Assembly: GCA_008632985.1 (NCBI GenBank)
Contig: QPGO01000035.1
Coordinates: 235,899 to 299,898 of the forward strand
Origin: Psammoneis japonica
Taxonomy: Eukaryota
Length of the DNA: 64,000 bases
Direction of reading: 5' to 3'
The notes under the pieces: generated by a model
The model's database searches: none
What the model was told of the DNA's origin: nothing
The model's input: only the letters and a program-made list of their open reading frames with translations
Shown: positions 37,251-62,149 of the stretch, one piece after another
Position numbering within the stretch: the stretch's first letter is position 1
Layout: every line of letters begins with the position of its first letter
Position numbers and translations under genes: made by a program

Positions 37251-37634
37251 AGATCGTGCGCCCAACCACTGTGTGCTTCCAACACGAACGCAACGCTTGC
37301 GTTGGGTCTTGCTTTTTGGCTGCGGGTCGTGCGCGAAATGTCCAAGCAGACCACCGCGGATGCACGGCGCTTCAGTATATCATCTTGGCATCTCACAAAA
37401 CTCAACGCATGGGAAAATTGAAAATAAATGCACCCAGTCGTGCCAAGCAAGTTTGGTCATAAGAACGTGAAATCCACTCCACATTTCAAAAAGTTTCCAC
37501 TCACAATTCACAAAGGTGCAAGATTGGTAAGTCGATTACGAGTAACAGAGTCGCATCCCCCACCTCCTTTGCTCGACTCACAGCTGTCAATTGCATCTCA
37601 TTGTGCATGTAAACTTGTCCCACAGTCCATCACA

Positions 37635-41489: not shown

Positions 41490-41740
41490 TTGTGCTCTGA
41501 ACATTTTAATCAGAGCAAAGCTTTGTTTAAATCATCACGTCACAATGCGGCACATTCAGAGCAAAGTGCAGTTGATCAAGGCCAAAACGCCTGCGCAGAG
41601 CACAATCAGAGCAAATTTGGTTGTTCGGAGCTCAAGAAATTTGTTCAGAGCATTGCACTCAGAGCATGATTTTGCAAATTAGAGCACTGAGCTAACATTC
41701 AGAGCATTGCTGTGATCATGAGCCAACATTCAGAGCGTTG
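41490..41740. repeat. Cluster of short CAGAGCA/TGCTCTG repeats
   Basis: Many (T/A)CAGAGCA copies; the same motif also occurs at 42280-42460 and 59120-59370. Confidence 0.6.
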
Positions 41741-44700
41741 CTGCGATTGTTTCCATTTGAGGCTGGATCGATGTTTAGCACTGTTTTTTTAAACAGCTCG
41801 TGATGATTTTCGAATTTCCCCGTGCTTCGCCCGTGTCATTTTGCGAAGCCTCTGAGCACCCCCAAACACATGTGAGTGTGTCCAGCCCCCATCAGGGCTG
41901 TTGGACCTTCATGTGGACTGCACATGTCAACCTTCAAATGCCAATTGTCGCACTTGCCTCGGTTGTTGTATGCGAGAAACCGCCATTTTCCGCCAAAAAT
42001 CGGACTGTTGCAGTGGACAAGCCACAACTTTCCAGGAAATGCCGACAATTGGCGTTTGACCGGCTGTGGACATGTCTGCAGTCGTCAAGCCACACATCGC
42101 GCATGGTCGCAATCGTCATGTGTGCATTCTGTGTTGTCTTACAAACAGACAAAGTTCGAGCTGTCGCTGATTTTGTTTTTGGCGAATGCGCGCATCATTG
42201 GTGCATCAAATCCGGGTTGTTTTTAAACATTTGCGAGCTCCAAATGAAATCGACCGCTAAACATCGATCCATCCTTAATCAGAGCATGACTCTGAACATG
42301 TTTTGAAAGCGCCCCACCATTTCCATTTAATTGCAGCACAACCGCTCACACTCTGAATGACGTTGGGATGCCCATTTGAACAGAGCACAACTCTTGACAA
42401 AGTTGTCGATGCTCCGAACAACCTCTTTTGGATGACAACAAGCCACGCAGTGCTCTGAATGACTTTCATTTAAGAAGCTGTGCTTCAATTAACTGTGGTT
42501 GACAAACACATCCGCCAAACTCCGACATCCTGTCGTTGCGGCGATGTGCTGCGTCACTGCGACAATTTGTTCTCATCGTTGCGTGTCCTCGTCCGTCGGC
42601 ACTGTCGTTTGTCAGATGCCGCTGACATGGCCTTTTGATGACACTCCTGACACAATGCAAACATGCAATTGCAAGAACCATTCAATGCATTCATGCAAAC
42701 CCACACCACCTTTCTTTTTCCCACCTTGCAAATGCTTGATCCAAAAACAATGTCACACTTGTTGCCGCAGCACTTTGTTGGGAAGAGTGGGTTTGTTTTG
42801 AAGCATGCTTGAGTGAAACATTTTCCATCATCTTGGTGGACCAAGGCATGGATCAAGTGAGCCTCCTCACACTTGCACTGTGAACACAGACAAAGAAGTG
42901 CAATTGGTTGGCGTGCGTGGACCAGACAAATCAACAACAAGGCATCAACAACATTCGTTCTCTACCTGGGAATTGCAATCAGTTGCTTCATTGGCTCCAG
43001 CAATGACGTGTGTTGTGCTTTTATGGTGACGTTTCTTCGTTGCCTCATTTTGTGACAAACAAAAAAAGTGAGAAGTGCGTTTCCAACATTTTGCGCACAA
43101 TCCATGTGTGTTTTCTTCATGCACTCTTGCCGTTTTTGTTTGCAATTGATCCAATGGCACAGACGGATTGTCCGGTTGAGTCTGTCAAAATGTGCCGGCA
43201 TGACGCCAATTGAAGGCCGTGAGATCAATTTCTCAATTTCAAACCGGAGCAACGACAATGCTCTCACCTTTTTATTTGCGCCATTGACAATCATTGCATT
43301 TGCCTTTCTCATGACAAACAACGAATGTTTGAGATGTGCCCAATCAATTGCACAATTGGTCACAAGACAACATGTGATCTTGCCATCTTCGGTGGCACCA
43401 TCCTCCACGTTTCAGTCACTGGGTGTGGTTGAGTCTGGTTTCCAGCAACACAATGACGCCAAGTTAGAGCAACAACCCACATCGGCAACTGGAGCACCAA
43501 CAATGCTCTCACCTTAAAATTCGCGCCTGTGGCAACTGCCTTGTCCGCCTCAGCACAAACGATGACAGCTGCGTGAGATGCAATCATGTGCAACAATCCT
43601 CACAACTGCGTGTTTGCTCACCCTTTCTTTTTGTGCTCGCTCCATCATTGTTTCAGGCATTGGTGATGGTTGAGTCTGGCAAGCAGCAACACAATGACGA
43701 CAATTGATCAAAGCAACAATCTACATCGACAACTGCTGAAACACCAACAAGGTCCTCACCTTTTGTTTTTCACCAGTGGACGCAATCTCATTTGCCTTTG
43801 CATGAAGAACCGCATCGTGAGCAGTGTGCAACCAACAGCCCTTGTGCATTCGCAGAACAACAATGTGTGCTCACCGCGTCAGTCTTCCTTTTCTCTTGCT
43901 CCGTTGTGCAACAAGGGAGCGCAGACAACCGGGCCTGACAAGCAACACAAGCCGTCAAAGCTGAAGTTGGTTGGAGCCATCATGCACTGCACAGCAAACA
44001 GAGCACAACAAATGTCATTTGGTCACCTGTGGTGCCACTTCTGCAAACTCCTGGGTGGCATCCTCATCATGTCCCCAAGGATTGTTGTCGTCCCAACCAC
44101 AGTTGTGCGTTCCTGCAAAATCATCACGGGGAGGAGTGAGCTCTGCCTCCTTCTCTTGCTCAGTGCAGTGCCCCCTTGCCCCAAGTTGGGGTGTGCCATT
44201 CAGCGCACTGTCCGTGGTGAGTGTTGACATCAGAGTTTCGGGCTCATGTTGCTGGTCAATCACAATCTCTTCGTTTGCCAATTCGGGGGAACTGGCGACT
44301 GTCATGCTTCCACGAATGGACTGCAGCAAATCTCCCTTGGACAGGGGAACTCCCATTTGTTCTGACAAAATGCTGGCTGTTTTTGTCAGGTCCACCAGGG
44401 ACGCAATGTCGACTTCTTGGCTTGATGTTCCCTCAGCAACTTGTTTTGATGTGTCGGTGATCTCTGCCTGTTGTCAAACACCGGCAATGAAAACGCAGTC
44501 GCAAACCAAACAAGTTTGTGACACCACAAGGAATTGCAATGTAAAGAGATTTACTCACCGCAATTTGTTTCATCGTCACTGCGTAAAACTTTGCTTTCAC
44601 ATTTGTTGCAACGGCAACGGCGTCACAAGTTTCACCTCCCTTTTCCTTGTTGGTTTTGTGCCTTGTAGTTGCCACACACCAGCCCGTTTTTCGCAGCATG

Positions 44701-45960
44701 AACTCCACAAACGTTCCAATTATTTGACACTTTGCTTGGCGTGCCACAACTGTGAACCCACCTCTGTCATCACGACACACTTTCCGAGGTTTGCTGGAGT
44801 CGTTGTTGGTGGGCGCCAACAGTGTCATGTCATTTGCGGCGAACCATTTGTCAATGGCAGCAGCAAGCCATCCTCTGTTTTGATGAAATGCGTGGAAGAC
44901 TTGACAAACGAGCTGCTGGTTCTTGGCTGTGTTGTCCATGCAGGCCAAAATGTTCTTGAAGTCTTGTGTGGTGACAGGCATTGCATTTGTCGATGGCATC
45001 ACCACCTTCTCAAGCATGGCAATCTTCCTGCAACCCTCCATGCATTGAGTCATGACAAATGATCGAAGTGATGACCAGATTTCGGCCACCTCTTGCAGCA
45101 TCTTTTTGCCACTGGGCGGCTCCGTCTCTGCCACCCCAACTGCTGGTCGCGCCTTTCGGTGCTGCCACAAAAGAGCAGCCTCACCATCATTGGCGGCGCT
45201 GGCCCCCGTTGTTGGATGGAGAAAGTTTCTTGGACACTCCAAGGTGCGCGTGGGTGATGGCAATTCATCGCCTGCATCCATTCCAGCAACATCACACCGT
45301 TGGTCAGTTCACAATTAGATTCCAAATGCACGCTTCAATTTCAACAGCACTTGCCTGTGTTTCTCGCTGCTGAAGTGTCTCTCCTTGACAAGGTGAGGTT
45401 TCCCGATGTTGCAGTGCCTGTCCTCGACGTGGTTGACAGACCATTGGTTGCGACCGACGCCTGTGTTGGTTGAAATGAATTGATCATCGTGTGTTTCAGA
45501 CTTCATCTTTTTTTGTGGATTGTGCGGGGTGCCGGACAAGAATCTGTTTGACACAACTCCAGAAATCACGGTTGCATGTTCTCATTGCACGCAATTTGAG
45601 TTACATCAGGTTTTATTCTTGTCCTCATGTGTTGATTTTTTCAATGATGTGCCAATGTTCTGACAAAGTTTTCTCATCATGTTGAGCCATTGTGTTGAGA
45701 AAATTGTTCTTTCCGTCAGTTTGCACCCCAAACAAAAATTGGATTCTCATCACTTGACTTTTAAAAGTGAGGTTTTCTTTGAGTGACATTTGTGGGTTCT
45801 CATCCGTCAGGTTTTGAAAGTGCTTGTTTTCACATGCGTGGTTCCATGCATGCATTGCAAAAACACGATTGCCTTGGGGCGGGTGGGATGACACGAGCGT
45901 GCGCATGCACTCCCTCTCCACATGTGCACAGTGGTGACCCATGCGTGCAGTGTTGCTTCA

Positions 45961-46055
45961 GATTGAGAGCACTTCTGGTGCTCCACCTCATTTTTCACAA
46001 ATGTCCCTTGGATTGAGAGCACTTCCGCTGCTCCACCTCATTGTCCACATGTCCT
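45961..46055 (+). repeat. ~50-bp tandem duplication
   Basis: GATTGAGAGCACTTC....TGCTCCACCTCATT occurs at 45961 and 46011. Confidence 0.75.
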
Positions 46056-46830
46056 CCAAGGCGCACCCCAGTTTTGCCAAACAACGCCAATGACAGAACA
46101 GCCATCAGTCATTTCTGTCGTTCCCGTTGCTTCCACGATGCCATGGATGACATGGCAAACAATTGGGGGTGCAAACTTGTTGTCATCAGCGAGCGTGGCT
46201 CAAAACGCAACGTCGACGAGTTGTTGCATTCTTCCATGGACCCAGGCCATCAGAAACAATTGGAAGAGCCAACCCATCATCACTTTGATGGGAAATTGCT
46301 GCTCTACAAAGTGTTGCCCAATGGCTCTGATGCCAATCTGTTTGCAATTAACTCGGTGACGGGGGGCCACAACGACGGATGTTTGATTGCCTGCGGAAGT
46401 CATGTTGCCGGAGATTGTGGACCGATCCACTGTTGGACCACCAGCACGTTCAGTTCAGAACATGGTCCCAGCACAGTGATGAGCCCGGACGATGCATTCA
46501 ACTCATTCACACGCAATCACACCATTGCGCTTCCACATCACACACCAGGAACTCTCAGCTCGGCGAGTCTCTGTGAGCATGAAAAGGACTGTCTTGATTG
46601 CACTCATCTCCGTTGTTTGACGCAGGCTGCAAAGAAGGTGCCAACCACTGCTTTGTTTTTGGAACTTGTGCTGGCAAACAATGGCGCCACGCTCAGTGAC
46701 GACTTTTTAGATTCTCTGGGTGTGTTGGCCAAACACCATTCTTTTAAGATCATCATGGACGAAATGATGATGGGTGGACGGAGCGGAAACATGTTGTCAT
46801 TCCTGGACAAACCCCAGCATTTTTTTTGAT
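46041..46830 (+). pseudogene. Class-III PLP aminotransferase-like cargo remnant
   Basis: ALFLELVLANNG....DDFLDSLGVLAKHHSFKIIMDEMMMGGRSG matches the class III pattern AxxxEPv...G...fl..l..l...h...I.DEv.TG.GRtG. Confidence 0.6.
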
Positions 46831-47359
46831 GCTGTTGCTTGTGTTGCTCTCGGACGCACATTTCTCATTTGACCATCACAGGTCCGTCTTGTGGGGGGTG
46901 TCAAAATGTCGTGCTTTGATGCGTCTCGAGGATTGATCGTCACATGATGCACTCAGCCATCAAGGTTGTGCAAAATTGAAAATTCACACATTGAAGCACG
47001 ATGTTTTGACATCCCCCGTGAGACAACCTGTGATGGTCAGACAAGAAATGTGCATGATCGGCTCACTGGAGGGACCCCAAAGACACCTTCATTTGCACTC
47101 AACAATCGATTTTGACCAAATGCACACTTTTTGCCGCACCCGAGTGTTGCCTGGTGAATCCGTGGATGCGGTGTTAATGTGCAACCGCACACAGATGAGG
47201 AAATGCGTGGCATGTGCAAATTGCTGCGTCATTTTGCGGAACAGCCTGTTGGCACCGCTTTCCAAACTGGGTGGTCATTGATGAATGTCCTTGGTGGCAA
47301 GCCTTCCTCAGAACCGCAGACGTGCAAACTGTTGCATGAAGCAGAAAAGGCAGGTCTCG

Positions 47360-48283
47360 TCAGCAAAACTTTGGTGACTCGCAAACACCTTCATGCATGG
47401 AAGTCGTTGCCGCCTGCCATTTTTCCCACCAAGAAGAATCAATTGACACTGTCGTTGGCCCAGCTTTTTTGTTTACGTTTGCCCAACCTTGTTTGGACAG
47501 CTTTTGGCAATCGGAAAAAAATGCTTCCTCCACGGCCTCTTTTGGGTCTTCCAGGAGTGCGTCCATTTCAAATGCGTCGTTTCCACAACACCAGTTCAAC
47601 CACTGAATGTCATTGGCAGGAAGAGCATGTTCATGATTAGAGTCAAAGATCCAGCCACTGTGCAAAGCGACGCAATGATTGTTTGTCAACCCACAAAGAA
47701 CAATGTCATTGGCTGTGTGGTTGGTCATGTCAAAGAAACCCTCCCTGCCTGCTGCCCACTTCTGACGCCTCTCGCACCGGCACCACTTTCTTGGTGTCAT
47801 CAGTGGAGGAAACAACTTGTGCTTTTCACCTGACAACATGCCTGCAGCGAACTCCAAACATTTGTTGTTCGTGTTCTCTGACTTGCAAGAATCATCCAGG
47901 TGTCTCACAATGTGTTGCTCCATTCTCTCATCTCCAATGTAACTCAGGACACCAGCCAGGCTCGAAAAAACGCACGTGTCTCTCCCCCCTTGTTGACATT
48001 TGACTGTGGGTCCAGAGTTGGGAAATTCCAGCTCGCTTTTATCCAAAATGTCACCCTCTGGCAGGCTGCACCATTTTTTTTTCCCTGGTTGCAAATCACA
48101 CATGGCCTTGCAAACTTCCGGACATCGCTTCTGAAAATTGGCTCTTGCCCACCCCACAGCAAAACACAATGGTTTCTTGTTGCTGCCAACCCCCATGAAA
48201 TGAGGTTTTCCCTCACCCCCTTCAAAATCATCATGCGCTGCCAGCCCCTTTCTTGCTCGTTCCAGCTCTGTCAGCCACCTCAC
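47360..48283 (-). pseudogene. Papain-fold cysteine-protease-like cargo remnant
   Basis: QQGGRDTCVFSSLA (Q..C helix) ... NNHCVAL.SGWIFDSN (H..D) arrangement. Confidence 0.5.
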
Positions 48284-49760
48284 TTTATGAACCTGACCTT
48301 CGTTTATCCTGTGTTTTGCTCTGGACGCGTTCCAGCCCTAGGTGGGAGCTCGTAGTGCTGACGTGTGACAACAACAATTTTTGTCATCCGTCGCATGTTT
48401 CGCACGTAGATTTCTGCGTGTGACATTTAAAAAAAATTGTCCAGACTCGCTGTTTTGCGAAGCCCCAGATGTTTTGTGCAGCAAATTTATAGAAACAACA
48501 ATGTGCCAGTTGCATTCTTCAATGTCTGAAGAATGTAACTGGCCAAGTAAAAAATGATGTGCTTCAATCATGTGCGAGTTTGTGCGTTCGCAAAATTGCC
48601 TCATTTTCTGTTGGCGATCATTGACATTTTAATTGCCGTGTGATTTTGCTGCGGAGCTCGCACGTAGAAGTCTGCGGGCCCAATGTCACACGGATTCCCA
48701 CCTGCGTCTGGAATGCGTCTCTGTTGCAAATTTGCCGCCTTTGTCTGCTGTTTAGATTTGCTCTTGTGTTTGGCACCTTTTCAGCCTTCTCAATGGCGTG
48801 TCAAACAAGGTTCATCGTTGCACCTCCGCACCTGTCGTTTTCCTCTCCAAAATGATCTTCGGCAAGTGTTCTGCCGTGCTTGCCATCTTCGAACCATCCA
48901 AATAAAACTTGTCCTTGGTGATCTACAGCATCACCTGGAACAGGATCCGTCCGTGAGGCCCGATCGATCCATTCGAAGTGACGCATCCTTCCAAAGTTTC
49001 TGGCATCCTCATAGAACGTCCTGGCGCTGTGATGCATGTCTTGATGTTGCTTCTCACAATCAGACAAAACCATTCGTTGTGATGTGAGGAGACCTTGATC
49101 TTCAGGTACCAAGTCCAACTCTTCCACCTCCAAATTGCCATCATCTCCCTTTTTTGGCTTTCCTGTTTTCTTGACGCTCTTCCTTTGACGTTGGTGGGCA
49201 AGCACCTCCTTTGCCAGCACTGTGAAATGACATTGTCGAAGCAACCGATTGATTTTGTGCCAATGCAGTTTTTCCGCTTCTTTGCACCAAACGGCAATGT
49301 GGTGCAAAGCTGGCTGAAAGAATGCTTTCTTGTCCAACACAACATTGCATTTTTCTGGGTCCCTTGAGGCAGATCTGTCATTCTGCACCGCACCAACCAG
49401 TTTTTCATGCACGGCACTTTTGCTTTGCGCAATGCAACTGTCGCACTTGCCCGGAACACACATCACATGATTGCAGTGATGGCTTGTTAGCACTGAAAAC
49501 AAAGCAGCAGCCGGTGACAGCCTCTCACGGTCATTGTGGCTGCAATCAATCTGCATCACCAAGTCACAGGTTTTGCACCTCAACAATGTCTTCAAGACAC
49601 ATTTGCCAGAGGGTCCATCCTCTCCCAATGGCATTTGCGACTCCATGTCATCATCCGAATCACTCCGACTCCTCTGGCGGCACTTGTGATTGAGAACGCA
49701 CTTCCGGTTGTCAGCTCCATTCTCCAACACTGGCTGGAACTTGCCGCGTGCACATTTTTC

Positions 49761-51179
49761 TCATTGATCCATTTCCGAAGTTCTTGATCGATGCGTCGCT
49801 CTATCCCATGTTTCATCATTTACCAACTCATCCATTTTACACACAAAATGGATGCTTGCTGCAAACAAAGCCGTGGTCTCGAATTGTGACAGCACCGTGT
49901 TGTGCTCATTGTTGTCACCCACGCACTCCACGCACTCTCTGCAGGACTCACAGATTAACTTTCCCACGTCAAACCATTGACGCCCATCAAGGTGCTTTTT
50001 CCAGGACAGTGCAAAAGAATCCAATGTTGCCACCCCTGCTCTCACTGCTGACGATTTGCAGATCACGTCTTTCTCTTGTTCCACCCACTTGCGGCACGGC
50101 TCTGCTGGCAGCTTTTGGCTCTTCCAGAAATGAGACCTGTCTCGCCAAGACTTTACATTGTGTTGGAAAGCATCATCTGTGTGCGAGATGGGCAAGGCAA
50201 TCTTTTCCGAAGGTGTGGTCACTCTGCGTTTCACCATCAGTGCACGAATGCATTCTCCGTCCTCTTTGACCAAGTTCTCCCAATTCCAATGATGCCTCAC
50301 TTCCTTCCAAGAAGGTTCCTTGTTCATTTCATCTGTCACATCCTCAAAACCCAATGTTTCACAGCAATGCTCTTCTAGGTTCACTTGACAATGCAGCATT
50401 GTGTCCCAAGTGCCAACAACTGTGCAGCCGATTGATTGAGCCACGCCGATGAGGAATGGGCACATCCCACAATTGCGAACCTTGCCCTGTTGTTTGATTA
50501 GAACACAGTCAACAATTGTGACTGGCACCGATCGAATGCATCAACACAACAACACAGCCACAAGATCTTGTGCGAGAGTTGCTTCTTCGCCATTCATGGA
50601 AACTGCTGCCAAAACGTGAGTGTGCTTGTTTTGCAACAAGTCCTCAATGTCGCCTTTGTCATCGGCATCAAATTCCTGAAGAAGAAAGTCGCGAATGGAC
50701 CGCCTTGCAGTGTTGATGTCATCTTCATGCTCAGATGACAAACCCTTCTGGTTGTGATGCAACACGACGCACCTCTCCCCCTCCTGATTTTGCCATTGCC
50801 CTGAATCAGCCAACCCAATCAGCGATTGAGTTTCTAGACTGGGGTTGACAAGGTCACACAAGTCTGTAAAATGACAGAGGTTGTCCCGCTCTCTCTTTGC
50901 CACATCCTCATTGATGCGATCGACAAAATTCCGGAGCCTTGCAGGAATGTTGTCAATGTTGCCACCATGGGATTTTGAGGACAATGGGGAAGAAGCCCGT
51001 GCTTTCTCTTCCTGCTCTGCCTGTGATGACAGATTGTCCTCTCTCTCTGTTTGTGAGGCAGCAACAGCCGCATTTGCAAGAGTTTCCATTCTGGAGTCTC
51101 CCGACATTTGATTGAAAAGCCTTGCTTCAGGACGTTTGCTGCTGGTGGCACAATGTTTCATTGACAACGCCGACGACAA
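49761..51179 (-). pseudogene. Cargo ORF remnant with GNAT acetyltransferase-like motifs
   Basis: VRNCGMCPFLIGVAQ (R..G.g..L acetyl-CoA motif) and HCCETLGFE (YY..LGF with Y->C). Split by a TGA at 50541. Confidence 0.4.
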
Positions 51180-51269
51180 AATGTGCTTCCACCTGTTGAT
51201 GACACCACACCGCTAACCTGCACCCTTGCATGGCGCAACTGCACAACACAACGAGGGTGTCCCAGCAAG

Positions 51270-54200
51270 TCCCCCAGGACACCACCGTAAAATGTTGGGC
51301 ATGAGCACAGTCGGCAAACAGATTTTCCACTGTCCTGGAGGATCATTTGGTCGCATGCGACAACACACAAGCGGTCGATTGTTCACACATTCCATGAGGA
51401 AACGATCAGGGTGAGCAATGCGCATCTGGTTCAATTGTTGGTCCTCAAACTGGTGCTCTTGAATCCGTTGTAATGTCATTGGATTTTGCATCTCCTGCAT
51501 CGCAGGGCAATTCAAAAAGGAATCGAACAGCTCCGGCTCATCAACAAAGAAAGAGAAGAAGTGTGAGTGGCCTTCATTTTCAATGTTGCGACAACACTTG
51601 AATCGGCATGCGCCGAGCTCCAAGTCCTCATCGCGGAATCCTCGACTTCGGATGGTTCCTCACTCGGCACCAACTTCGAATCGAGCAGAGCAAAATCAAC
51701 AACAGCTCCTTTTCCCGGAGCCAAGCTCTTCCCTTCAGAGGGAGGATCCACACGAGGCAAACGAGAAAAACAATCAGCCAAGACATTCAAGCGGCCTTCG
51801 ACACAATGGAATTGAGGGGCAAAGTCTTCCAGAAAGAGGCACCAACGGAGCACACGTTGTGAATTTAAGGTGCGAAAGGTGAGGTTCTTGTGGTCGGTGA
51901 ACACATGCAAGTCACCGCCAAGGAGCATCGTTCGGAATTCGCGGAAGCACATGACAATGGCCAAGAGTTCTTTTTCAATCGTCGAGCAGTTTTGTTGTGC
52001 CGTGTTCAGCTTTCGAGACCAGCATGCAATGGGTTTTCCGTCTTGTACAATCACTGCGCCCATTTGGCAATCACTGGCATCGGCACAGACATGGAAGGGT
52101 TTGTCATGATTCGGATGCGCCATCAACGTCTCGGCCGCCAGTGCTGCTTTCATCTCTTCAAACGCCGCCTGACAATCTGCTGTCCACGTCCATGAGCCTT
52201 TGCCTGTGAGATCTGTCAAGGGCCCCAACAAGTGAGAACGCCGAGGCCACATGTTACGACAGCATGTCACAGCACCAAGAAATGAACGAAGCTGCTTGAC
52301 ATTTTCCGGAGGTTGCATTCGCAGAACAGCTTCCACTTTCTTCTTCCACGGACGAATTCCAGTCGGAGCCAGCCAATGCCCAAGGAAATCCGTTTCCTGC
52401 ACACACCACTCACATTTCAAAGGGTTCACTTTAAATCCAGCTTCTTCCAAACGTTGCAGGAGTTTGTCGAGACGAGCAAGGTGAATGTCACAATTGTCAT
52501 CAAATTGAGCGAGATCATCAACACACGCGTCAACGTCCAAGTCATGCACAGTTTTCTCAATCAAGCATTGCGCAACATCCGGAGCCGGCTTCAAACCCAT
52601 TGCCAGATGGCAGCATCGATGCTTTCCAAAGGGTGTCACGATTGTCGTCAGATCTTTGGAATCATCGTCCAGTTCAAATGTGCAGCACATCATTGAGAGA
52701 TCCAACTTTGTAAGAAATTTGCACCCGGCTCTCTTTTGCAACACATCTTGGATGATCGGTGAGGGACAAACCTTGCGCTTGAGGGCTTTGTTGAGTCCCC
52801 GAAAATCGCTGAGCCACCGCACTCGACCATCTTTCTTCGGCCGAACAAAGGCACCTGCAGCCCATTCCGAAGTTCCGGCTTCTTCAAGAACGCCAAGAGC
52901 CACTGAGTGATCCAATTCTCGCTCAAAAGTCTCGAGATCATTGTGCGGCACTGCATGCGCTCGAGAATGGTGCGGAACGGTGTTGGGATCAACATCAAGG
53001 TGAACTTTTTCGCCAGCATGCTTGCCAAGGGTGCCATCAAAAAGAGCAGTGTGTTTTTCCAACACGAGACGCAATTTCTCTTGCTGTTCGGCAGCAAGAT
53101 GCTTCTGAGCTGTAGCTGCTTCAGAAGGGGGCGTCTCCTCACACTTTGCATCGAGGATGCAGCCATCCCACACGTCATCATCATCAGCCAGCTCATCAGT
53201 CAAATCATCGAGCCATTGCTGGGTGCCAGTCCGCTGATTCCTCGGCTTCATCGCAATGCTTGAACCGAGCCACTTGACAATTCCGTGTTCGAAATCCAAT
53301 GTGACACCCGCTCTCGCCAAGAAATCCTGTCCAAGGATCACATCACATTGGCAGGGTGAGTCAAACACATGCGCATGCGTGCCGTCAACATGTTTGGTCT
53401 TGTCGAATTCAGGGAGCACCAAGTCCTGCAGTCGAACACAACGAGTTGATTCGAATTCTCCTGCCATTGTCCTGAACTTCGCATGAATCGGTCCTGTCTC
53501 TTCCAATGCTGGAACCGCTCCAACCGGCAACACCCGAGCATGAATCATTGAATGGGTTCCACCGGAATCAAGCAATGCCCGCATCACGCGCTTGCTTTCC
53601 TTGTCTTGAATGAATCGTGCCGCAAACAAGGCTGCAGGGACCACATTCAATGGCTCAATTGGTTTTGTTTTTGGAGTTGGTGCAGCGCACTCAAGTCCCA
53701 CATCGTCTTCGTCATTCACAGCATGATTTCCGAAATCGTCATCATCAAATAAATCAGCAGCACACACATGACAATCATCAATGCAATCAGTGCAATCATC
53801 AAACTCATGAGAATCAGGAGCGACACACTCAGACGACAGCTCTTCAAGCTCATTGGGTCAGTGTCGACCGCGTCCCGAGAAGCGACCACCAGGTCGAAAA
53901 CTTCCCGTTCCACCTCGACACTCTCAAGGCCCTCCTGTCGAATCAAGATGATGGCTTTCAGCAGACCAATCATTGGGAGGAGCCGTTCTGGCCGGATTGC
54001 CGCAACCGCCGCCATCTGCATTGGCTCGGGTGTCGTTTTGACATTGCATGCAAGAGCCACCATCATCATGATGCTCGCCGCCATTGCCGCCAGAGTCATG
54101 GTTTCCGCGACCACCGTAGTTTCCTCGGCCACCACCACGACCTTGACAGCCACGGCCTTGCCAACCACGACCTTGCGCTCCGCCATGACCACGACCTCCG

Positions 54201-55300
54201 CCTCGACCGCCACCTCGACCGCCACGGCCACCACATCCGTGACCTCCGTGATCAGTTCTTGGATGGCAGTTGTCAGAGTCGGGATTCATGACGCAATCTT
54301 TCCACTTGTGATTGTGAGTGTGCAAAGGACATTGAGATTCTGGGTCAATGCGATTGCCTTTCTTCTTGGTGGAGCCGCCACCTTTCGACTGTCCGTCTTT
54401 GCGCTTCTTTGAAGTCTTCTTGTTCCTGTCTGCAAATGATTTCTCCATGTTCACACACGTGACAATTTCCGCTGATGTGTCATTTCCAATCGTGCGTCCT
54501 GCTCTTGCATGCATCTCGCGCCACGACAAAGGGAAGCCATCGAAGATCATCTTCTTCTTCTGGTTCTGAGTGACAACTGAATCATTTCCCGGCAACTTGT
54601 TTGTGCATCGCACTGAGGTCTCCATTCGATCCGCATGTGCCTGTGCTTCAACATCATGTGGCTTTTTAAGAGAGAGCAAGCATTCAATCATCGTGCCACG
54701 CACTTCAGTTTCTCACAATGTGACAAATAAAAACGAGCCAATTCTTGGTCAAAACGAGCCACCGTCTTCTGCGCATTCGGAATCGCCATGGTGAGATTGG
54801 ACCATTTGTCTTCAGCGGCATCTGTCAACACTTCCTCGAAATTGTCAAACAGTTCTTCGCCTGTGGCAAATTCAAGTTTTGCAGCCAGTTTACGAAAACG
54901 ATCTTCCACGAACAACAACGCTTCAATGCCATTGGTTCCGTCAAAACAAGGGCACTTCTTCGTGCGCGTGCTACCATCATCACACGATTGAGTCAATTTT
55001 ACAAGTTCCAAATCCGAATGAGCAAATTTCACAGCATGCAAAATGCGCGATTCTTTGAGGCTCTCGCGATCACTCATCAGGCCAAGTTGGTCCTCCAAGA
55101 AACTGCTTCAAGTGCTCTACCTTCGACTCGAGTTGTGCAACCCAAATCGCTGAATCCTGTTCGCATTGTTTTCTTGTCTCCTTTTGCCGTTTTTGACGTG
55201 TTCCAGCCGCACGTGACCCAAATCGTGCACAAAAACGACATTTGCGCGATTTTTGCGCGGTCTCTGACTTGCGAACGGTTTTTCACCACCAAAAGTATAG
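51270..55300 (-). mobile_element. Ty3/gypsy LTR retrotransposon, 3'-truncated at the start of the integrase, nested in the CACTG element
   Basis: gag ~55077-53924 (frameshifted; CPLHTHNHKWKDC knuckle, RGG tract). pol 53767-51213 has protease LLDSGG, RT (PKKDG..R..DFRGLN, LDL, CVDD, FLGH) and RNase H (DASD, EKELLAI, TDHKNL, NVLADCFSR), in the order PR-RT-RH. LTR not delimited. Confidence 0.92.
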
Positions 55301-55319
55301 ATTTATTCAAATTCTAATG

Positions 55320-55358
55320 TTTTGCAACACTAACAAGACTCGTGTGAGTGTTGCAAAA
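55320..55358. repeat. Hairpin/inverted repeat upstream of Gypsy gag
   Basis: TTTTGCAACACTAACA-agactcg-TGTGAGTGTTGCAAAA: 16-bp stem with one mismatch. Confidence 0.7.
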
Positions 55359-56003
55359 TCATTGTTATTGTGCCATCAATGTTTTTCATTGCGATGAACG
55401 AATCGTAACACAACGGATGATTTTCGGCGAAATTATTGCCGTTATTTGGATGTTAACTAAATATATCTTTCTACGATGATTTTTAGTATATTTGCTACTT
55501 ACAAAGAAATTTACGTATAAAGAGTACAGACGTACAATCAGTATTGAGTCTACTGAGGAAGTTTATGATACATGTGCCATGAGGAATTTGATACCCCACA
55601 AAAAACTATTTAATTCTTAATAATTATTCATACTCTAGACGCCTATAAAAGCCAATCCGTTTAAGTATTTTATATGAAAATAGTACATACACTAATATGT
55701 GCATACCTTATATTCAAAATCGATTGTCATTTTGTGTGTCACCTGGGACTGGAACACGTCTTTTGTTCCAAAGCCCAATTCGCTGCCTTCGCTCTCAACA
55801 TTCTTTTCTCTTGTTTTGCAAGCCCATTGGTTGTGTCGTTGTTTCTCATTCAGCTCTTTACAATCGACTGTAATTACAGTGCAAGCTCAAGCTGAAACTG
55901 ATGTCAAAACAAAGAAGTGAGTGGACCGAAGAGAGGGGAGCCCAAGCATTGGCGAACGCTGGCGAGCCTCTCTCAAACGGCTGCGTCAATCTAACATCCA
56001 AAA

Positions 56004-59000
56004 TTAACACTGTGTGTCAGAAGCGTGCGAGTGAGTTGCTGCAATCAGGTCAAGAGCCAAGAAATGGTTGACTGTTGGTGAATGTGACGCAAAGCGATGG
56101 TTTGCCAGTCGACATGTTGCTGCGTTTGATGCCAGCCTCTGGCCGCACTGTTTGCACACCACCTTCTCCAGTGTCGTCACCCTCCCAATGCAGAATGGCC
56201 GGTCCATCATTGTCGTGGGATTCCGTGACTCCCAACATTCCAAGGGACACAGATTTCACAAAGTTGGCCTTTTTTTTCTTTTTCTTGCAACCTGCAGAGG
56301 CATCATTGACATCACCATCATCTGCATCATCAGTGGGCAATTTCATCAACCACCTGTCCATCTCGACCATTGCATCCAAATGTGTCAAAACAGTTTCGTG
56401 AAGGTCAGCAACAACGTGCTCCGATGACATGACTCAGCCAAGACATGCTTGTGTTGCGGAAGCAAATCGAAGCACCATCCTTGACACACATGCACAGTCC
56501 GAGTGATTGTCCAGCAACCGTGGTTGATGGAGCGCAGGCAGCGTGACCACAAATTTTACTGTCCTTGCCCAAAAGAAGCAATTCTCACTCACCCAGGGAC
56601 CGGTGCCCCACTTGCTGGTGGAAAACGGATGAGCCGCAAAACATTTGGTTGACCGGAGAGACTGAATGGCCCGCAAGCGCATGTTGGCTTGCTTGCCAAA
56701 GGTTGCCTGGAGTTCAAAACAAGACAAAAATTTGGAGATCATTTCGACATCACTTTTAACATTGCCAAGACCAATGGTGTGCACTGGTGCACAATGACAA
56801 CGTGAAAGTGCTTTTGGATTCGTCCAAGGTGCTGGAAATGTTGGACAAGGCAGGTTGCGTTTTGCAGCAATGCAAACCAGGTCAATCATGCGTTGGATGA
56901 CGGCGCAACTACGAAGATGCGCCGTGAGGTCAGCTTTGGTCCAAAAGCACTTGTTGCTTGGGGTGCCCGGTGGATGCGTTCTCATGTTGTGATGAGCAAA
57001 CTCAATTGCTTCCTGCAACCAGGGAACAGTGAGTTTGACAGCGGACAACCACTGTCTTGGTGCAGTTGGGGCAGCCCCACAGTGGCGTTTGTGACTGCAA
57101 CGGGAAGCATTGGTTGATGCGGTTGGATCTGTTGCCGAGTCTTCAGTGGATTCCATGTCATGCACCGATGGGTTGAACACCGTAACTTCCCTTCCAGCGG
57201 GCGGTTGTGGCGCCCCTTCACGTTGGTCACATGAACAAGGATGGTCGGCGGGAGCAGGAAAATGAAAACCAGTGTCAAACACATTCCAAGATGCACATGC
57301 CTTTTGTGGACACATGGAAACAGGAGGGACGTTGCTTGCACCACCGCCGTCCAATGGTGTTTCTGGTTCCCGTGAACTGTCGGCAACATCCGAAGGATCC
57401 TCGGATGTGCCAAAATGGTTGCTCACATGTGCTTTGCGGCACAGCTTACAATGAGGCAAGTGATTGACAGAACAAGTTCCATCTGCAGAACAGGCATGTT
57501 CCCAAAACATTGAATGGGTGCCATTGTGGTCGCCAACGCGAAACATGCAGGAACATTCAGGCTGATCCACACAAACACTCAATTTACCGGCTTTAACACG
57601 CATGAGCTTCTGAAGGCCACCATGGCAAAACCAATGGCATTCTTGAGACAACGACTGCAGTTCACGTTCGAAAATTGTCTTGACGACTTCATGGTTTTCT
57701 CCCTTGGACGACATTGCCATAAAGCAGGTGTGGCGTCCACCGGAAGAATTGGGAGGAGGGCAGCAGGTGTGCGTGTTAAGCCACACTTGATTGCGTGACT
57801 GCTTCGTGCCGTTGGGATCAAAATCATCACACCATTCTTGCACCCACAGACACAACACAAAACTGTCACCATCATCTTTAAGTTCCATGAACAAGGAATG
57901 TGCTGCAGGTGTGCGCGACATGGCAGGTTTGGAATCTTGAACAAAGACATCTGCATCAAAAAAGAACTTGTCAAATTGCGTGGCTTGAGCCAACTCATTG
58001 GCAAGCACGTCTTTAAAGGAGACACAGGAATGAGTGCCATCGTTGGTTTTCCTGGGAACAGGATGAGGCAGATTTGGCACGATGGCACGTTTGCTGGACA
58101 AGTGCAACGTCAAAATCTTTCACAGAGGCAGGGACACGAGTCCGATGAAAAATGGACAAGTCTGGATCACGGCTGTTGGCGGCTTGCAGCATGCATTCTG
58201 CCAACAATGCTTGTTGTTTCTCGGTGAGTTGTGACAGCAGGCTTGCCATCACAAGGGAAAAATTGGCCTCTTCTTTGGCAACCTCAGTGACAGGCAATTC
58301 AAAAGCATCAGCTGTCAATTTCTGGAGTCCTTGTCTGGGATGCGAGTGCTCATGCCAAAAAAAGTCTGGGCTTTTGGAGTCCGCATCAAAACATTGGCGA
58401 AGATCGTCAATGCTCAAAAGAGGACGTGAGCCAGCATGATTGACGTCGTAAATCCAATCTTCGTGGTTGTCAGGTTCCTTGCTCTCTGACACAGTGGAGG
58501 CAACATCATCATTGTTGCACCAACCGCCTTCGTCGTGTGTTGGATCTGCCGGCTCATGGAAAGCATTGACAGACGTTGGTGCGGCATTCAAAGCTTCAAA
58601 GGCCACCACATGAGTTGCAGTTTTGGCATGCCCAACGCAGGTTTTCCAATCCTTTAAAATTGGAAGATGAGAACCAGCGCTGCTTGTGTTTCTGGCATTC
58701 CAGCAGCATTCGCACACAAAAAACGACTCAACAAAACACTCGGGGTTGAGACAATTTCCAGTCAAGAGGAAATCACCCATGTTTTCGATGCAGCGTGAGT
58801 TGTCACATGGAGTCAATGGAACTGTCGAGAAACATTGTTTGCAACATGTGGAGATTGCAGTGGAGGCCATGGCTGCGCCGCAAAGATGCAAATGCAATGA
58901 GCCGCAGGGACGGATGCATTGTGATGCGCGGCCGCCGCTGATTGCGATGACGATGCACTGCGTTCTGAAGAGCAGCAAAGATGCTCGCCACACACATGCG

Positions 59001-59008
59001 CGCCGCAT
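56004..59008 (-). pseudogene. EnSpm/CMC (Plavaka-like) transposase, frameshifted and TpA-mutated
   Basis: LWVQEWCDDFDPNGTKQSRNQVW, ELQSL, CVDQPE and APVHTIGLG resemble CMC transposase motifs (D.F.P...S.W, D.P.R, D.MH...LG). Cys-rich N-terminus. Confidence 0.65.
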
Positions 59009-59379
59009 GTGTGCATGTCATCGGCACATTGTGCATGTGCAACACATGTGTGCGAGCATTGGCCAATCTTGCATTGTGGGCTTGCACATGTTGATTGTTG
59101 GTTTGACGCAAAAAAAAGGTGTGCTCTGAAAATGAAAGAGGTGGCATGGGCTACAGTTGTTTGAAGCAAATGCCCTGAAAAATGGCACATGATCAGAGGC
59201 GTCCTCTGAATGCGGTTGAACAGAGCGAGAATTTGTGCTTTGCTCCGATTGTGTCTTGCAAACAGAGCATGTCATTCTGACTGTGGCTCAAACAGAGCAA
59301 CGCCACGACTAAGTTTTTCGCTTCTTTAAACAAAGCATTTTACTCTGTTTATTTTTATTCGGAGCAAAAACAGCTTGTT

Positions 59380-61051: not shown

Positions 61052-61419
61052 CGCAGACAAGGGGACGAGCACTGACGATCCACGGTAGACTACCCGTAAG
61101 ACTTTAACTAGGCGGATAGACGATGGAATTACGTTTTTACTCATAGTTTCTTTTTGTAACCATCCTTAGTTCTTGGGAGGGGTTGATGGGAGGCTATCCC
61201 TGAATATGCAGAAAAGGTTCTTTGTGCTTTTACCATTTTTTGGGGTGACGTGCAGACTGCACTAAGATCACCAGTAGAAATCTAGAAGACTTTAGTAAAA
61301 AATCTACTTGATTTTTTCATAAAATGGCCAAAATCTACTCCCTCATTAACCTGTTGGTCGTATCTCAGGAAGCCCAGGCTCCTCCAACAACTCCCAAGGC
61401 AACACAAACTCCAACACTT

Positions 61420-61874
61420 CCAAGGATGGCAACCGCGGAGATCTTTTGTCCAAAGGATTTTGGGACAAAAGGACAGACACCATCATGGATGTTCGCATTC
61501 CGGACACGGATGCGAAGTCACACCTGTCCAAGACACTGGAAGAAGTTCTGGAACAACACGAACGAGAGAAAAAGCACAAGTGCCTCAAGCCCTGCCTTGA
61601 GCAACGCCGCCACTTCACTCCCTTCGTCGCATCATGCGATGGACTGTTTGGCAAGGAAGCCAAAGCAGTGCTGCACAGAATCTCTGCAAAACCAGCTGAG
61701 AAATGGCAAAAGCCATTTTCAGAGGCATGCGGCTGTGTTGACACGAGAATGAGCATCACTTTGGCACGGGCAACTCACCGTTGCCTCAGGGGATCACGCA
61801 CCCCTTCGTCCCAGATCAGCTCAAGACATCCTCAATGGGAGGATGGAGCTGGTCCATCCCTTTGCAAACACTGA
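61420..61874 (+). mobile_element. 3' fragment of an RLE-type (CRE-like) non-LTR retrotransposon
   Basis: RGDLLSKGFW...DVRIPDTDAKSH...HEREKKHKC...RHFTPFVAS.DG..GKEA...ARATHRCLRGSR is a restriction-like endonuclease C-terminus with Y->H/C changes. Confidence 0.8.
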
Positions 61875-62149
61875 GTGACCCCACTTGGGCCAGGCCACTC
61901 ATGTGGAACGATTGCCAACCTGCTGCTCACAGAGACCACCACCGATGCCATGCCCGAGAAGACAACAAAAACCTGGCAACATGCTGACAACGGTGCCAGA
62001 ATCGATTCGGATCTCACCCGCACAGTTTCCTCTTTTGTGGGTGCAAGCACTTGCTGGCACCCACCATGTTTTTGAGTTTTTTGGTGCCACTGCTTGCTTG
62101 TGATGCTGCCACCATGCGAGTGCTGGATGCGGAGAAGAGGGTGATGAGC

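What the first reader, a model, noticed from the sequence alone, without database searches (positions are those of the whole stretch)
51512..53767. Repeat-targeted TpA->TpG/CpA hypermutation ('reverse RIP'): every Tyr erased from a Gypsy pol
Seen in sequence: the 751-aa pol ORF is open and collinear, yet has no Tyr. Positions normally Tyr in Ty3/gypsy proteins read Cys (TAY->TGY) or His (TAY->CAY): ACVDD (YxDD; TGT at 52523-52525), SMMCCTF, GKHRCC, VTCCR, VCADASDCQ, IACWSRK, QNCSTIEKE and LGHW. Leu->Ser (CPSP for YPLP) and Thr->Ala (VCAD for VYTD, TA across codons) fit the same rule. CpG is largely retained here, so 5mC deamination does not explain it. The same signature appears in all repeat classes in the window (copia, CACTG, Helitron-like, CRE-like LINE) but not in neighbouring genes. 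Established knowledge: fungal RIP makes C->T changes and creates TpA, so this is the opposite direction. Inference: a genome-defence mutator acts on repeats or heterochromatin and converts A:T->G:C at TpA on either strand, for example by DNA adenine deamination or by miscoding of a modified T or A. This destroys catalytic tyrosines. I do not know of a description of such a system, but could not search the literature.
Basis: partly seen in the sequence, partly recalled or inferred. Interest (0 to 1): 0.95.

Follow-up and report, generated by a model that had tools for sequence, protein, structure and literature searches.

The report
TpA-erasing hypermutation of diatom transposons
In this diatom DNA nearly every TA step inside transposon insertions has been rewritten to TG or CA, which removes all tyrosines from their proteins; the same mutation signature was reported in 2026 for viral inserts in an unrelated alga.

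Summary
The 751-aa Ty3/gypsy pol ORF (51512-53767, minus strand) has 0 Tyr. At 19 Tyr columns conserved in 39 homologs it reads Cys (TGY) 15 times, His (CAY) 3 times and Phe once, while other conserved residues are mostly kept. Ten segments totalling 38,350 of 64,000 bp hold 118 TA, against 912 TA in the other 25,650 bp, and TG and CA rise to match. Host genes lie in the normal segments. A second, unrelated multi-copy protein family (56036-58861, minus strand) shows the same loss: 0 of 15 conserved Tyr kept. The host is a Bacillariaceae diatom. Exact contigs from a public run cover depleted stretches, so a noisy long-read artefact is unlikely. New here is a context rule: ATAT, ATAC and GTAC are erased, while TTAA and CTAA/TTAG largely survive. 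A 2026 bioRxiv preprint shows TpA-to-TpG/CpA hypermutation of integrated viruses in Bigelowiella natans. I found no diatom report. The enzyme is unknown; DNA adenine deamination is the leading guess. Verdict: new member of a recently described kind, high interest.

The parts
51512..53767 (-). Ty3/gypsy pol ORF (protease-RT-RNase H), 751 aa, Tyr-free; the YxDD motif reads CVDD (TGT at 52523-52525)
51237..51632 (-). Remnant of the integrase N-terminal part in another frame. The pol is frameshifted near 51640 and ends near 51237, and no rve core was found.
   Evidence: tblastn of P0001, P0002 and P0004
53927..55107 (-). Two upstream ORFs in the position expected for gag, with no Pfam match; the assignment is inferred from position only
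1..5550 (.). TA-depleted segment that has also lost CpG (12 TA; TA O/E 0.03, CG O/E 0.16); holds an LCIB-like remnant at 1735-2379(-)
9651..10600 (.). Short TA-depleted segment (3 TA, O/E 0.06) between host genes
12651..21700 (.). TA-depleted and CpG-depleted segment (17 TA; TA O/E 0.03, CG O/E 0.11). It contains the paralog pair 19470-19775 / 20980-21290, which shows 14 TG<->CA two-base swaps.
23751..26350 (.). TA-depleted and CpG-depleted segment (7 TA; TA O/E 0.04, CG O/E 0.17)
36051..37350 (.). 1.3-kb insert of unknown kind between two host genes, holding a single TA (O/E 0.01, CG O/E 0.50)
40001..48250 (.). TA-depleted DNA with CpG kept (HMM segments 40001-41300 and 42501-48250). The stretch 41301-42500, which the HMM called normal, keeps mostly resistant contexts: 9 of its 19 TA are TTAA.
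48951..55250 (.). TA-depleted segment with CpG kept (29 TA; TA O/E 0.07, CG O/E 0.80); contains the Gypsy element
56051..59300 (.). TA-depleted segment (14 TA, O/E 0.07) that matches one element of the second family
56036..58861 (-). Coding region of a multi-copy protein family with no Pfam domain (561-aa ORF at 56437-58119, frameshift near 58110). None of its 15 conserved Tyr columns is kept: 9 Cys, 4 His, 1 Arg, 1 Phe.
   Evidence: weak RAG1/Transib-like fold hint at Z 4.2-4.4
61401..63700 (.). TA-depleted segment (5 TA, O/E 0.04, CG O/E 0.66)
55251..56050 (.). TA-normal island (55 TA, O/E 0.72) lying between the two mutated elements. It has very high summed read depth and is not mutated.

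Best explanation
Transposon insertions in this Bacillariaceae diatom have undergone a DNA-level hypermutation, after insertion, that is specific to the dinucleotide TpA. One A:T pair of each TA becomes G:C, giving TG when the A of the strand being read changes and CA when the A of the opposite strand changes. The process works insertion by insertion and has sharp edges. It runs almost to completion long before ordinary decay or CpG loss catches up, and it leaves host genes untouched. It erases TAY (Tyr) codons and TAA/TAG stops, and so inactivates the elements. Flanking bases modulate it: R-TA-Y sites go first, while TTAA and CTAA/TTAG resist. It is the same kind of process as the TpA hypermutation seen live in Bigelowiella natans. 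The most likely chemistry is enzymatic deamination of adenine preceded by T, to hypoxanthine, which is then copied as G. The enzyme would be recruited to silenced or foreign DNA. What is shown: the signature, its confinement to insertions, its occurrence on both strands and its context dependence. What is inferred: that it happened in place, that it serves as a defence, and which enzyme does it.
For: - **Direction and specificity.** In the Gypsy pol, 18 of 19 conserved Tyr became Cys or His; in the second family, 13 of 15 did. Of the A>G changes at codon position 1, 19 of 26 follow a T.
- The O/E values of TA, CG, TG and CA sum to about 3.8-4.1 in all classes, so TA and CG were converted into TG and CA. 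ApT is not depleted.
- **Stop codons.** Depleted DNA has TAA 1.47, TAG 0.80 and TGA 23.6 per kb per strand. Normal DNA has 8.56, 7.70 and 18.87.
- **Confinement.** Segment edges resolve to within about 300 bp or less. Segment 56051-59300 coincides with one element's coding span, 56036-58861. Host genes with Pfam domains all lie in normal segments.
- **Both strands and independent events.** Cys and His both occur. Four other public Gypsy pols (P0037, P0259, P0291, P0294; 45-57% identical to each other and to this one) lack Tyr at the same columns but make different C/H choices; P0259 has 8 C and 9 H. One paralog pair shows 14 TG<->CA swaps in 265 aligned nt.
- **Not a family trait.** None of 31 related metagenomic Gypsy loci is TA-depleted (TA O/E 0.48-0.98).
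- **Context.** Survival by tetranucleotide class is ATAT 0, ATAC 0.006, GTAC 0.027, CTAA 0.315 and TTAA 0.320; chi-square p = 1e-18.
- **Sequence reality.** Run X1 holds exact contigs over 51001-51326, 56554-57506 and 58293-59443, with 0 differences at word depth 34-39.
- **Precedent and rate.** In B. natans mutation-accumulation lines, 230 of 231 mutations in two viral inserts were A>G or T>C, and all of these fell on TpA. From the preprint's numbers I estimate about 1e-5 per TpA per generation. That would remove 98% of TA in about 3.6e5 generations with negligible other change (my own estimate).
Against: - No ancestral or consensus DNA of these families was available. Direction rests on protein homologs and on dinucleotide budgets.
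- X1 may be the data the window was assembled from, and its library type is not on record. It is therefore not independent proof.
- No de novo events could be seen and no genome is held, so no deaminase could be looked for.
- Among the 10 differences that one search lists inside the Gypsy (only 40 of 292 places were shown), 5 are CG versus TG/CA and only one place is a TG/CA swap. The TA changes may therefore be shared by many copies, either because they predate copy amplification or because context decides the outcome.
- The island at 55251-56050 has very high summed depth yet is not mutated. Copy number alone therefore does not set the target.
- My attempt to infer which strand is preferred from tetranucleotide gains gave mixed answers.
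- The flanking preferences found here do not match what I recall of tRNA anticodon-loop or ADAR preferences.
Confidence: 0.7

Rival explanations
1. The mutated base is T, not A. A thymine modification placed on silenced repeats at TpA (for example 5-hydroxymethyluracil made by a TET/JBP-type hydroxylase) mispairs with G or is mis-repaired, giving T>C at TpA.
For: TA is self-complementary, so sequence alone cannot tell A>G from T>C. In dinoflagellates 5hmU is made by TET/JBP homologs, is enriched in repeats and silences transposable elements (PMC11572971; listing abstract, passages).
Against: No evidence of 5hmU or JBP-type enzymes in diatoms was seen in any call. The passages read from PMC11572971 mention no TpA-to-CpA decay. 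The B. natans authors favour adenine deamination.
Confidence: 0.12
2. A-to-I editing of retrotransposon RNA at UpA, followed by reverse transcription and integration of already edited copies.
For: Sense-strand bias in this Gypsy (Cys 15, His 3) and in the two families together (24 to 7; binomial p = 0.003). Segment edges at element ends would follow naturally.
Against: - His (antisense) products exist, and P0259 has 8 Cys to 9 His.
- The Cys bias tracks the preceding base: with G before the codon it is 5 Cys to 5 His, otherwise 19 to 2 (p = 0.02). That points to local sequence context and not to the transcript strand.
- About 97-99% of TA is lost, more than I would expect from one round of editing, and Tyr-free copies cannot retrotranspose by themselves to be edited again.
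- Depleted segments without any RT domain exist.
- In B. natans the mutated DNA was integrated viral DNA, mutating in place.
- From recall, ADARs are confined to animals.
Confidence: 0.05
3. Sequencing or assembly artefact: a modified base at TpA in repeats is miscalled by a long-read basecaller.
For: The platform of the assembly and the library type of run X1 are unknown.
Against: - X1 gives exact 326-1151-nt contigs at word depth 34-39 over depleted DNA, which noisy long reads would rarely produce.
- By inference, a strand-symmetric miscall would give conflicting TG and CA calls from the two strands and some CG. What is seen is clean, context-dependent TG or CA and no CG gain.
- Four other public proteins from other records show the same Tyr loss.
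- The signature is seen in Illumina mutation-accumulation data in B. natans.
Confidence: 0.04
4. Selection or biased gene conversion: the elements avoid TA (for example to escape a UpA-cutting nuclease), or GC-biased conversion raises GC.
For: UpA avoidance is known in some viruses (recalled; search listings only).
Against: The changes destroy catalytic residues such as the YxDD Tyr, so they cannot benefit the element. AT, AA and TT steps are not depleted and GC content barely changes. None of 31 related elements avoids TA.
Confidence: 0.02

Closest known systems
TpA hypermutation of integrated NCLDV and virophage DNA in Bigelowiella natans (Mettrop et al., bioRxiv 10.64898/2026.01.13.699255)
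   Same: Nearly exclusive A:T>G:C transitions at TpA giving TpG or CpA. The process is local to foreign or mobile DNA while the rest of the genome is normal. The long-term trace is TpA depletion with CpA+TpG gain. That paper also finds RT and DDE domains enriched among TpA-poor CDS.
   Different: The host here is a diatom (stramenopile), not a chlorarachniophyte (Rhizaria). The targets seen here are a Ty3/gypsy element and other repeat insertions, not giant-virus inserts. Depletion here is near saturation (TA O/E 0.01-0.08), against Rho 0.45 for their NCLDV region. The flanking-base rule (TTAA and CTAA resistant) is not mentioned in that text. Their evidence is de novo mutations; mine is only the end state.
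Repeat-induced point mutation (RIP) of ascomycete fungi
   Same: Transition hypermutation confined to repeated or mobile DNA that inactivates transposons; dinucleotide-specific; leaves blocks of skewed composition beside normal genes.
   Different: RIP changes C:G to T:A (CpA to TpA) and creates TA and stop codons (recalled; fungal RIP papers appear in listings only). Here TA and the TAA/TAG stops are destroyed. Dependence on duplication, a premeiotic stage or a RID-type methyltransferase could not be tested.
APOBEC3 or ADAR editing footprints in retroelements of animals
   Same: Deaminase-type transitions concentrated in retroelements, with a nearest-neighbour preference.
   Different: Those act on cDNA or RNA before integration, mark one strand, and are far from saturating (recalled). 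Here both strands are hit, TA is required, and loss is about 97-99%.
CpG decay by 5-methylcytosine deamination in methylated diatom transposons
   Same: It also yields TG and CA from a self-complementary YR step. It operates in this window too: CG O/E is 0.11-0.17 in three segments, and copy-specific CG>TG/CA differences are seen. It also appears in related metagenomic Gypsy loci with CG O/E 0.02-0.2.
   Different: It cannot explain loss of TA or of Tyr codons. The Gypsy keeps CG O/E 0.80 although its TA is gone.
5-hydroxymethyluracil marking of repeats in dinoflagellates (PMC11572971)
   Same: A SAR-lineage system that chemically marks thymine in repeats and silences transposable elements.
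   Different: It is an epigenetic mark and not a reported source of TpA>CpA substitutions. No diatom homolog was examined.

Membership tests
TpA-targeted A:T>G:C hypermutation (B. natans type) | Changes are almost only A>G / T>C transitions | tested here: met
   Tyr>Cys/His at 31 of 34 conserved Tyr columns in two families. The TA loss is matched by TG+CA gain. Direction is inferred from homologs, not from ancestral DNA.
TpA-targeted A:T>G:C hypermutation (B. natans type) | Changes fall on TpA, giving TpG or CpA according to strand | tested here: met
   118 TA in 38,350 bp against 912 in 25,650 bp. 19 of 26 position-1 A>G changes follow T. ApT is not depleted.
TpA-targeted A:T>G:C hypermutation (B. 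natans type) | Confined to foreign or mobile DNA, with the rest of the genome normal | tested here: met
   Depleted segments hold the Gypsy and a multi-copy family; host genes with Pfam domains lie in normal segments. This was tested on one 64-kb window only.
TpA-targeted A:T>G:C hypermutation (B. natans type) | Ongoing de novo mutation at a rate orders of magnitude above background | not testable with these tools
   Needs mutation-accumulation lines or strain resequencing. Only contigs of one sample were available.
Fungal RIP | C:G>T:A transitions that create TpA | tested here: not met
   The direction is opposite: TA, TAA and TAG are removed.
Fungal RIP | Triggered by sequence duplication | tested here: inconclusive
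   The mutated families have high summed depth, but the island at 55251-56050 with the highest summed depth is unmutated. The tool warns that summed depth is not a copy number.
RNA editing fixed by retrotransposition (ADAR-like) | A>G on the sense strand only | tested here: not met
   7 of 31 Tyr changes are His, which is an antisense product. P0259 has 8 Cys to 9 His.
RNA editing fixed by retrotransposition (ADAR-like) | Only retroelements are affected | tested here: inconclusive
   The second family has no Pfam domain. The fold search gave no Foldseek match and only a weak RAG1/RAG-like hint: Z 4.2-4.4, rmsd 4.8-5.5, 161-168 residues aligned, from a model with pLDDT 57.
Ty3/gypsy LTR retrotransposon | pol with protease, RT and RNase H, followed by integrase | tested here: met
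   RVT_1, RT_RNaseH and RT_RNaseH_2 are above cut-off; the protease hit is below cut-off. Only the N-terminal part of the integrase is present, out of frame.
Ty3/gypsy LTR retrotransposon | Catalytic YxDD box | tested here: not met
   It reads CVDD, where 37 of 39 homologs have Tyr. The copy is a dead member.
Ty3/gypsy LTR retrotransposon | Flanking long terminal repeats | tested here: not met
   Self-BLAST of the window finds no repeat pair around the element. The element is truncated near 51237.

The most novel reading that the evidence does not exclude
Diatoms and chlorarachniophytes share, or evolved twice, a nuclear enzyme system that recognises newly inserted mobile DNA unit by unit and deaminates adenine in double-stranded genomic TpA. 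It prefers R-TA-Y and spares TTAA, and it acts until the insert can no longer encode Tyr or use TAA/TAG. That would be a natural in-place A:T>G:C DNA base editor serving as genome immunity across the SAR supergroup.
Probability: 0.4. Interest if true: 0.9.

Novelty: new member of a known kind. Interest (0 to 1): 0.72.

Why it matters
Until 2026 the repeat-directed point-mutation defences I know of (fungal RIP, APOBEC) changed C to T. A TpA-specific A:T>G:C process has so far been reported once, in a preprint on viral inserts in a rhizarian alga. Finding its saturated end state on retrotransposons and other repeats of a diatom has three consequences:
- **Wider reach.** The phenomenon extends to a second SAR lineage, one that is ecologically dominant, and from endogenous viruses to ordinary transposons.
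- **A constraint on the enzyme.** The flanking-base rule (RTAY erased, TTAA and CTAA spared) is a concrete specificity that any candidate enzyme must reproduce.
- **Practical value for annotation.** Tyr-free, TGA-only ORFs that are open in many frames mark mutated elements, and HMM searches largely miss them.

If the enzyme is a DNA adenine deaminase, it would be a natural counterpart of engineered adenine base editors.

Tried and rejected
**Genome and database access**
- The whole genome is not held, so there is no genome-wide spectrum and no deaminase search.
- The listing of cluster members for P0037 was not sent because the database was switched off. The origin of the Tyr-poor public homologs is unknown.

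**Searches for the DNA of the Tyr-poor homologs**
- The metagenome scan with P0037 did not return P0037's own DNA (best match 63% identity). Its 31 related loci served only as a negative control.

**Read evidence**
- No RNA holder is listed. X2 has spliced contigs only over the gene at 59685-61000, and X3 laid nothing.
- Table 3 shows only 40 of 292 variant places, so no copy-to-copy spectrum could be built.

**Repeats within the window**
- The window's self-comparison gave only 4 repeat pairs and no LTR pair.
- The pair 41380-41510 / 39475-39605 was too short to be informative.

**Classifying the other depleted blocks**
- Pfam at E<=0.5 found nothing credible.
- Structure prediction of the second family gave a poor model (pLDDT 57), no Foldseek match, and only Z 4.2-4.4 rows to RAG1/RAG-like chains.
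- Searching CACTG, and inverted repeats around 55700-59500, gave chance-level results.
- Repeat search around the 36051-37350 insert showed no terminal structure.

**Strand and context**
- Inferring strand choice from tetranucleotide gains gave inconsistent signs. I report only survival by context and the codon-based Cys/His counts.

**Earlier scan notes and literature**
- Earlier scan notes held nothing on this genome or sequence.
- Ten literature searches found the B. natans preprint and no diatom report. Subscription-only papers and the preprint's supplements (closed) were not seen.
Full report
**1. The observation**

The ORF at 51512-53767 on the minus strand is open for 751 codons. It contains no Tyr and only 7 TA dinucleotides in 2256 nt. 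Pfam identifies reverse transcriptase and the two RNase H models typical of Ty3/gypsy pol, plus a sub-threshold aspartyl protease hit. A search of 5.8 billion proteins returned 283 hits. The best 120 listed are 42-63% identical and mostly carry RT, RNase H and integrase domains. The two named ones come from the diatoms Pseudictyota dubia and Cylindrotheca closterium. Of these 120, 119 have 2.2-5.8% Tyr, and one (P0037) has 0.8%.

I aligned the window ORF with the 40 best hits and left P0037 out of the consensus, so 39 homologs were used. There are 19 columns in which at least 60% of homologs have Tyr. In those columns the window has Cys 15 times (TGT/TGC), His 3 times (CAT) and Phe once, and never Tyr. 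In all other conserved columns 317 of 396 residues are kept, including Trp 11 of 11 and Gly 26 of 27 (Fisher p = 3e-13).

Amino-acid changes that need A>G at the first codon position (Ile/Met>Val, Thr>Ala, Asn>Asp, Lys>Glu, Ser>Gly) follow a T in 19 of 26 cases in the two families studied. The background is about 32%.

**2. Extent in the window**

TA O/E falls to 0.00-0.11 in many 1-kb windows, while TG and CA rise to 1.5-2.3. A two-state HMM on TA counts gives ten depleted segments. Together they cover 38,350 bp and hold 118 TA. The other 25,650 bp hold 912 TA.

All eight ORFs with host-type Pfam domains lie in normal segments. They include a diphthamide-synthase-like protein, bestrophin, an ALMT/FUSC transporter, an ankyrin protein, a syntaxin, a guanylate cyclase, a kinase and a solute-binding protein. 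These ORFs have 83 Tyr in 3210 aa. Six ORFs in depleted DNA have 3 Tyr in 2292 aa.

TAA and TAG are almost gone from depleted DNA: 1.47 and 0.80 per kb per strand, against 8.56 and 7.70 in normal DNA. TGA rises from 18.87 to 23.61. This explains the many overlapping long ORFs in all frames.

Three segments (1-5550, 12651-21700, 23751-26350) have also lost CpG (O/E 0.11-0.17). The others keep CG O/E 0.50-0.80. The O/E values of TA, CG, TG and CA sum to roughly the same total in every class, as expected if TA and CG were converted into TG and CA. Segment edges are sharp. For example, 16 TA lie between 12337 and 12606, and then only two resistant TTAG sites follow up to 13015.

**3. Host and reality of the sequence**

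The host gene at 7281-9344 on the minus strand is 64-67% identical to proteins of Bacillariaceae sp. and Cylindrotheca closterium. Its identity to other diatoms is lower. The window therefore comes from a Bacillariaceae diatom whose own proteins are not in the searched collection. No whole genome is held.

One public sample holds the stretch 51001-61000. Contigs of run X1 match the window exactly over 51001-51326, 56554-57506 and 58293-59443, at word depth 34-39. All three stretches lie in depleted DNA. X1 may be the data the assembly was made from, and its library type is not on record, so it is not independent confirmation. Still, exact contigs of up to 1151 nt are not what error-prone long reads would give.

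By inference, a strand-symmetric miscall at modified TpA would also produce conflicting TG and CA calls, and some CG. That is not seen. A second run, X2, has contigs that skip 60279-60414 and 60693-60809 with GT..AG ends. It behaves like RNA of the neighbouring gene.

Summed word depth over the Gypsy is 1,783-3,129. That suggests tens of related copies, although the tool warns that summed depth is not a copy number.

**4. Other affected sequences**

The 561-aa ORF at 56437-58119 on the minus strand belongs to a protein family with 17 database relatives. One of these is a cluster of 204 members. None has a Pfam domain. tblastn shows the family's coding span is 56036-58861 with one frameshift, so it fills the depleted segment 56051-59300. 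Its relatives have 1.9-4.3% Tyr and the window copy has none. At 15 conserved Tyr columns the window copy has 9 Cys, 4 His, 1 Arg and 1 Phe.

I could not classify this family. AlphaFold gave a poor model (pLDDT 57) and Foldseek found nothing. The wide structural search put five RAG1/RAG-like chains on top, but only at Z 4.2-4.4 (rmsd 4.8-5.5, 161-168 residues aligned). That is within the range of chance.

The depleted block 1-5550 contains a short LCIB-type carbonic-anhydrase remnant.

**5. Independent events on both strands**

Two diverged copies inside the old block (19470-19775 and 20980-21290) differ by 14 two-base TG<->CA swaps in 265 aligned nt. They also show 4 CG-versus-TG/CA differences, 1 TA-versus-TG/CA difference, 14 other transitions and 5 transversions. 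Such swaps are what independent transitions at a self-complementary YR step (TA or CG) produce after duplication.

Four other public Gypsy pols are 45-57% identical to the window ORF and to each other, and they lack Tyr at the same columns. They make different choices:
- P0037: 9 Cys, 5 His, 3 Tyr.
- P0259: 8 Cys, 9 His.
- P0291: 3 Cys, 6 His.
- P0294: 5 Cys, 3 His.

P0037 was 1 of the 120 hits listed. The other three were 3 of the 150 best representatives. Their origin could not be looked up.

In contrast, none of 31 related Gypsy loci fetched from metagenomes is TA-depleted (TA O/E 0.48-0.98), although several are CpG-depleted. The signature is therefore a property of certain hosts and not of the element family.

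**6. Context rule**

Surviving TA sites in depleted DNA are not a random sample. Survival relative to normal DNA, by tetranucleotide class, is:

| Class | Survival |
|---|---|
| ATAT | 0 |
| ATAC/GTAT | 0.006 |
| GTAC | 0.027 |
| ATAG/CTAT | 0.033 |
| ATAA/TTAT | 0.057 |
| CTAC/GTAG | 0.067 |
| CTAG | 0.071 |
| GTAA/TTAC | 0.117 |
| CTAA/TTAG | 0.315 |
| TTAA | 0.320 |

The chi-square p is 1e-18. TTAA makes up 22 of 118 survivors, against 46 of 912 TA in normal DNA (p = 1e-6). This understates the effect. The stretch 41301-42500, which the HMM called normal, has 9 TTAA among its 19 TA.

Cys exceeds His 24 to 7 in the two families (p = 0.003). The excess depends on the base before the codon: 5 Cys to 5 His after G, and 19 to 2 otherwise (p = 0.02). 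That points to local sequence and not to the transcribed strand. A budget analysis of tetranucleotide gains was inconsistent, and I draw nothing from it.

**7. Mechanism**

The data fit a DNA-level process that acts on inserted elements in place. It converts one A:T pair of each TpA to G:C on either strand, and it is far faster than background decay. The Gypsy has lost essentially all TA while keeping an open frame, 80% of conserved residues and CG O/E 0.80.

The closest precedent is a 2026 preprint, of which I read the abstract, Results, Discussion and searched passages. Its supplements are closed. In mutation-accumulation lines of Bigelowiella natans, 231 of 302 nuclear mutations fell in two integrated viral regions. 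Of these, 230 were A>G or T>C, and all of those were at TpA. TpA-poor CDS were enriched in RT and DDE domains. The authors propose an ADAT2-like adenine deaminase.

From their counts (211 mutations, 3,132 generations, 6,169 TpA) I estimate about 1.1e-5 per TpA per generation. At that rate 98% loss takes about 3.6e5 generations, during which background mutation is negligible (my own estimate). The state seen here is the expected end point of such a process.

From recall and not from any call: TadA and ADAT enzymes deaminate A34 of tRNA, which always follows U33, so a TpA preference is natural for a relative acting on DNA. A thymine-modification route cannot be excluded from sequence. Dinoflagellates mark repeats with 5hmU through TET/JBP homologs (PMC11572971, passages).

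RNA editing followed by retrotransposition is disfavoured by four things: the antisense products, the degree of saturation, the depleted blocks that have no RT, and the in-place mutation seen in B. natans.

**8. Open points**

- Among the few copy-to-copy differences that the read tool displayed inside the Gypsy, CG-versus-TG/CA differences dominate, and only one place is a TG/CA swap. I cannot tell whether the TA changes arose separately in each copy with context-determined outcomes, or before the copies multiplied.
- The island at 55251-56050 lies between the two mutated elements and has the highest summed depth (7,524-19,046). It keeps 55 TA, many in the most sensitive contexts. Either it arrived later or it is exempt, so copy number alone does not set the target.

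**9. Novelty**

Ten full-text searches found the B. natans preprint and no report for diatoms. The DNMT survey of diatoms discusses RID-like DNMT4 but no RIP-like mutation (PMC9998398, passages). The searched library lacks most subscription journals.

I rate this a new member of a kind described once. It adds a new host lineage, new targets (a retrotransposon and other repeats), near-saturation and a flanking-base rule.

Noticed in passing
window 55251-56050: AT-rich island with normal TA content (55 TA; a dense run at 55296-55711) between the Gypsy 5' end and the second element. It has the highest summed read depth of the stretch (7,524-19,046) and contigs that skip about 300-320 nt inside it. 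A small hairpin lies at about 55321-55360. Its nature is unknown (LTR part, MITE or satellite).
   Followed up: partly
window 1735-2379 (-): A 45-residue match to the LCIB/LCIC beta-carbonic-anhydrase domain (E = 1.7e-6) inside a block that has lost both TA and CpG. It may be a decayed host-gene copy or a captured fragment, which would mean the process also hits non-transposon sequence embedded in such blocks.
   Followed up: no
window 1-5550, 12651-21700, 23751-26350: These blocks have lost both TA and CpG (CG O/E 0.11-0.17), whereas blocks from 36051 onward lost TA but keep CG O/E 0.50-0.80. This suggests that TA loss is much faster than CpG decay and could be used to order insertions by age.
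   Followed up: partly
window 56036-58861 (-): A multi-copy protein family of about 600-970 aa with no Pfam domain (one database cluster has 204 members). It has conserved His, Asp and CxxC positions, and its top structural rows are RAG1/RAG-like chains at a weak Z of 4.2-4.4. It may be an unclassified DNA transposase of diatoms.
   Followed up: partly
window 59685-61000: Contigs of run X2 skip 60279-60414 and 60693-60809 with GT..AG ends. These are two spliced introns of an expressed host gene that has no Pfam match.
   Followed up: no
window 36051-37350: A 1.3-kb insert between two host genes with a single TA and no ORF homology, terminal repeats or tandem repeats. It is an unidentified target of the same process.
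   Followed up: partly
L009, L011, L012, L013, L017, L021, L031 (metagenome loci): Related Gypsy elements from metagenomes with strong CpG depletion (CG O/E 0.02-0.22) but normal TA. This shows CpG decay without TpA loss in other hosts.
   Followed up: no
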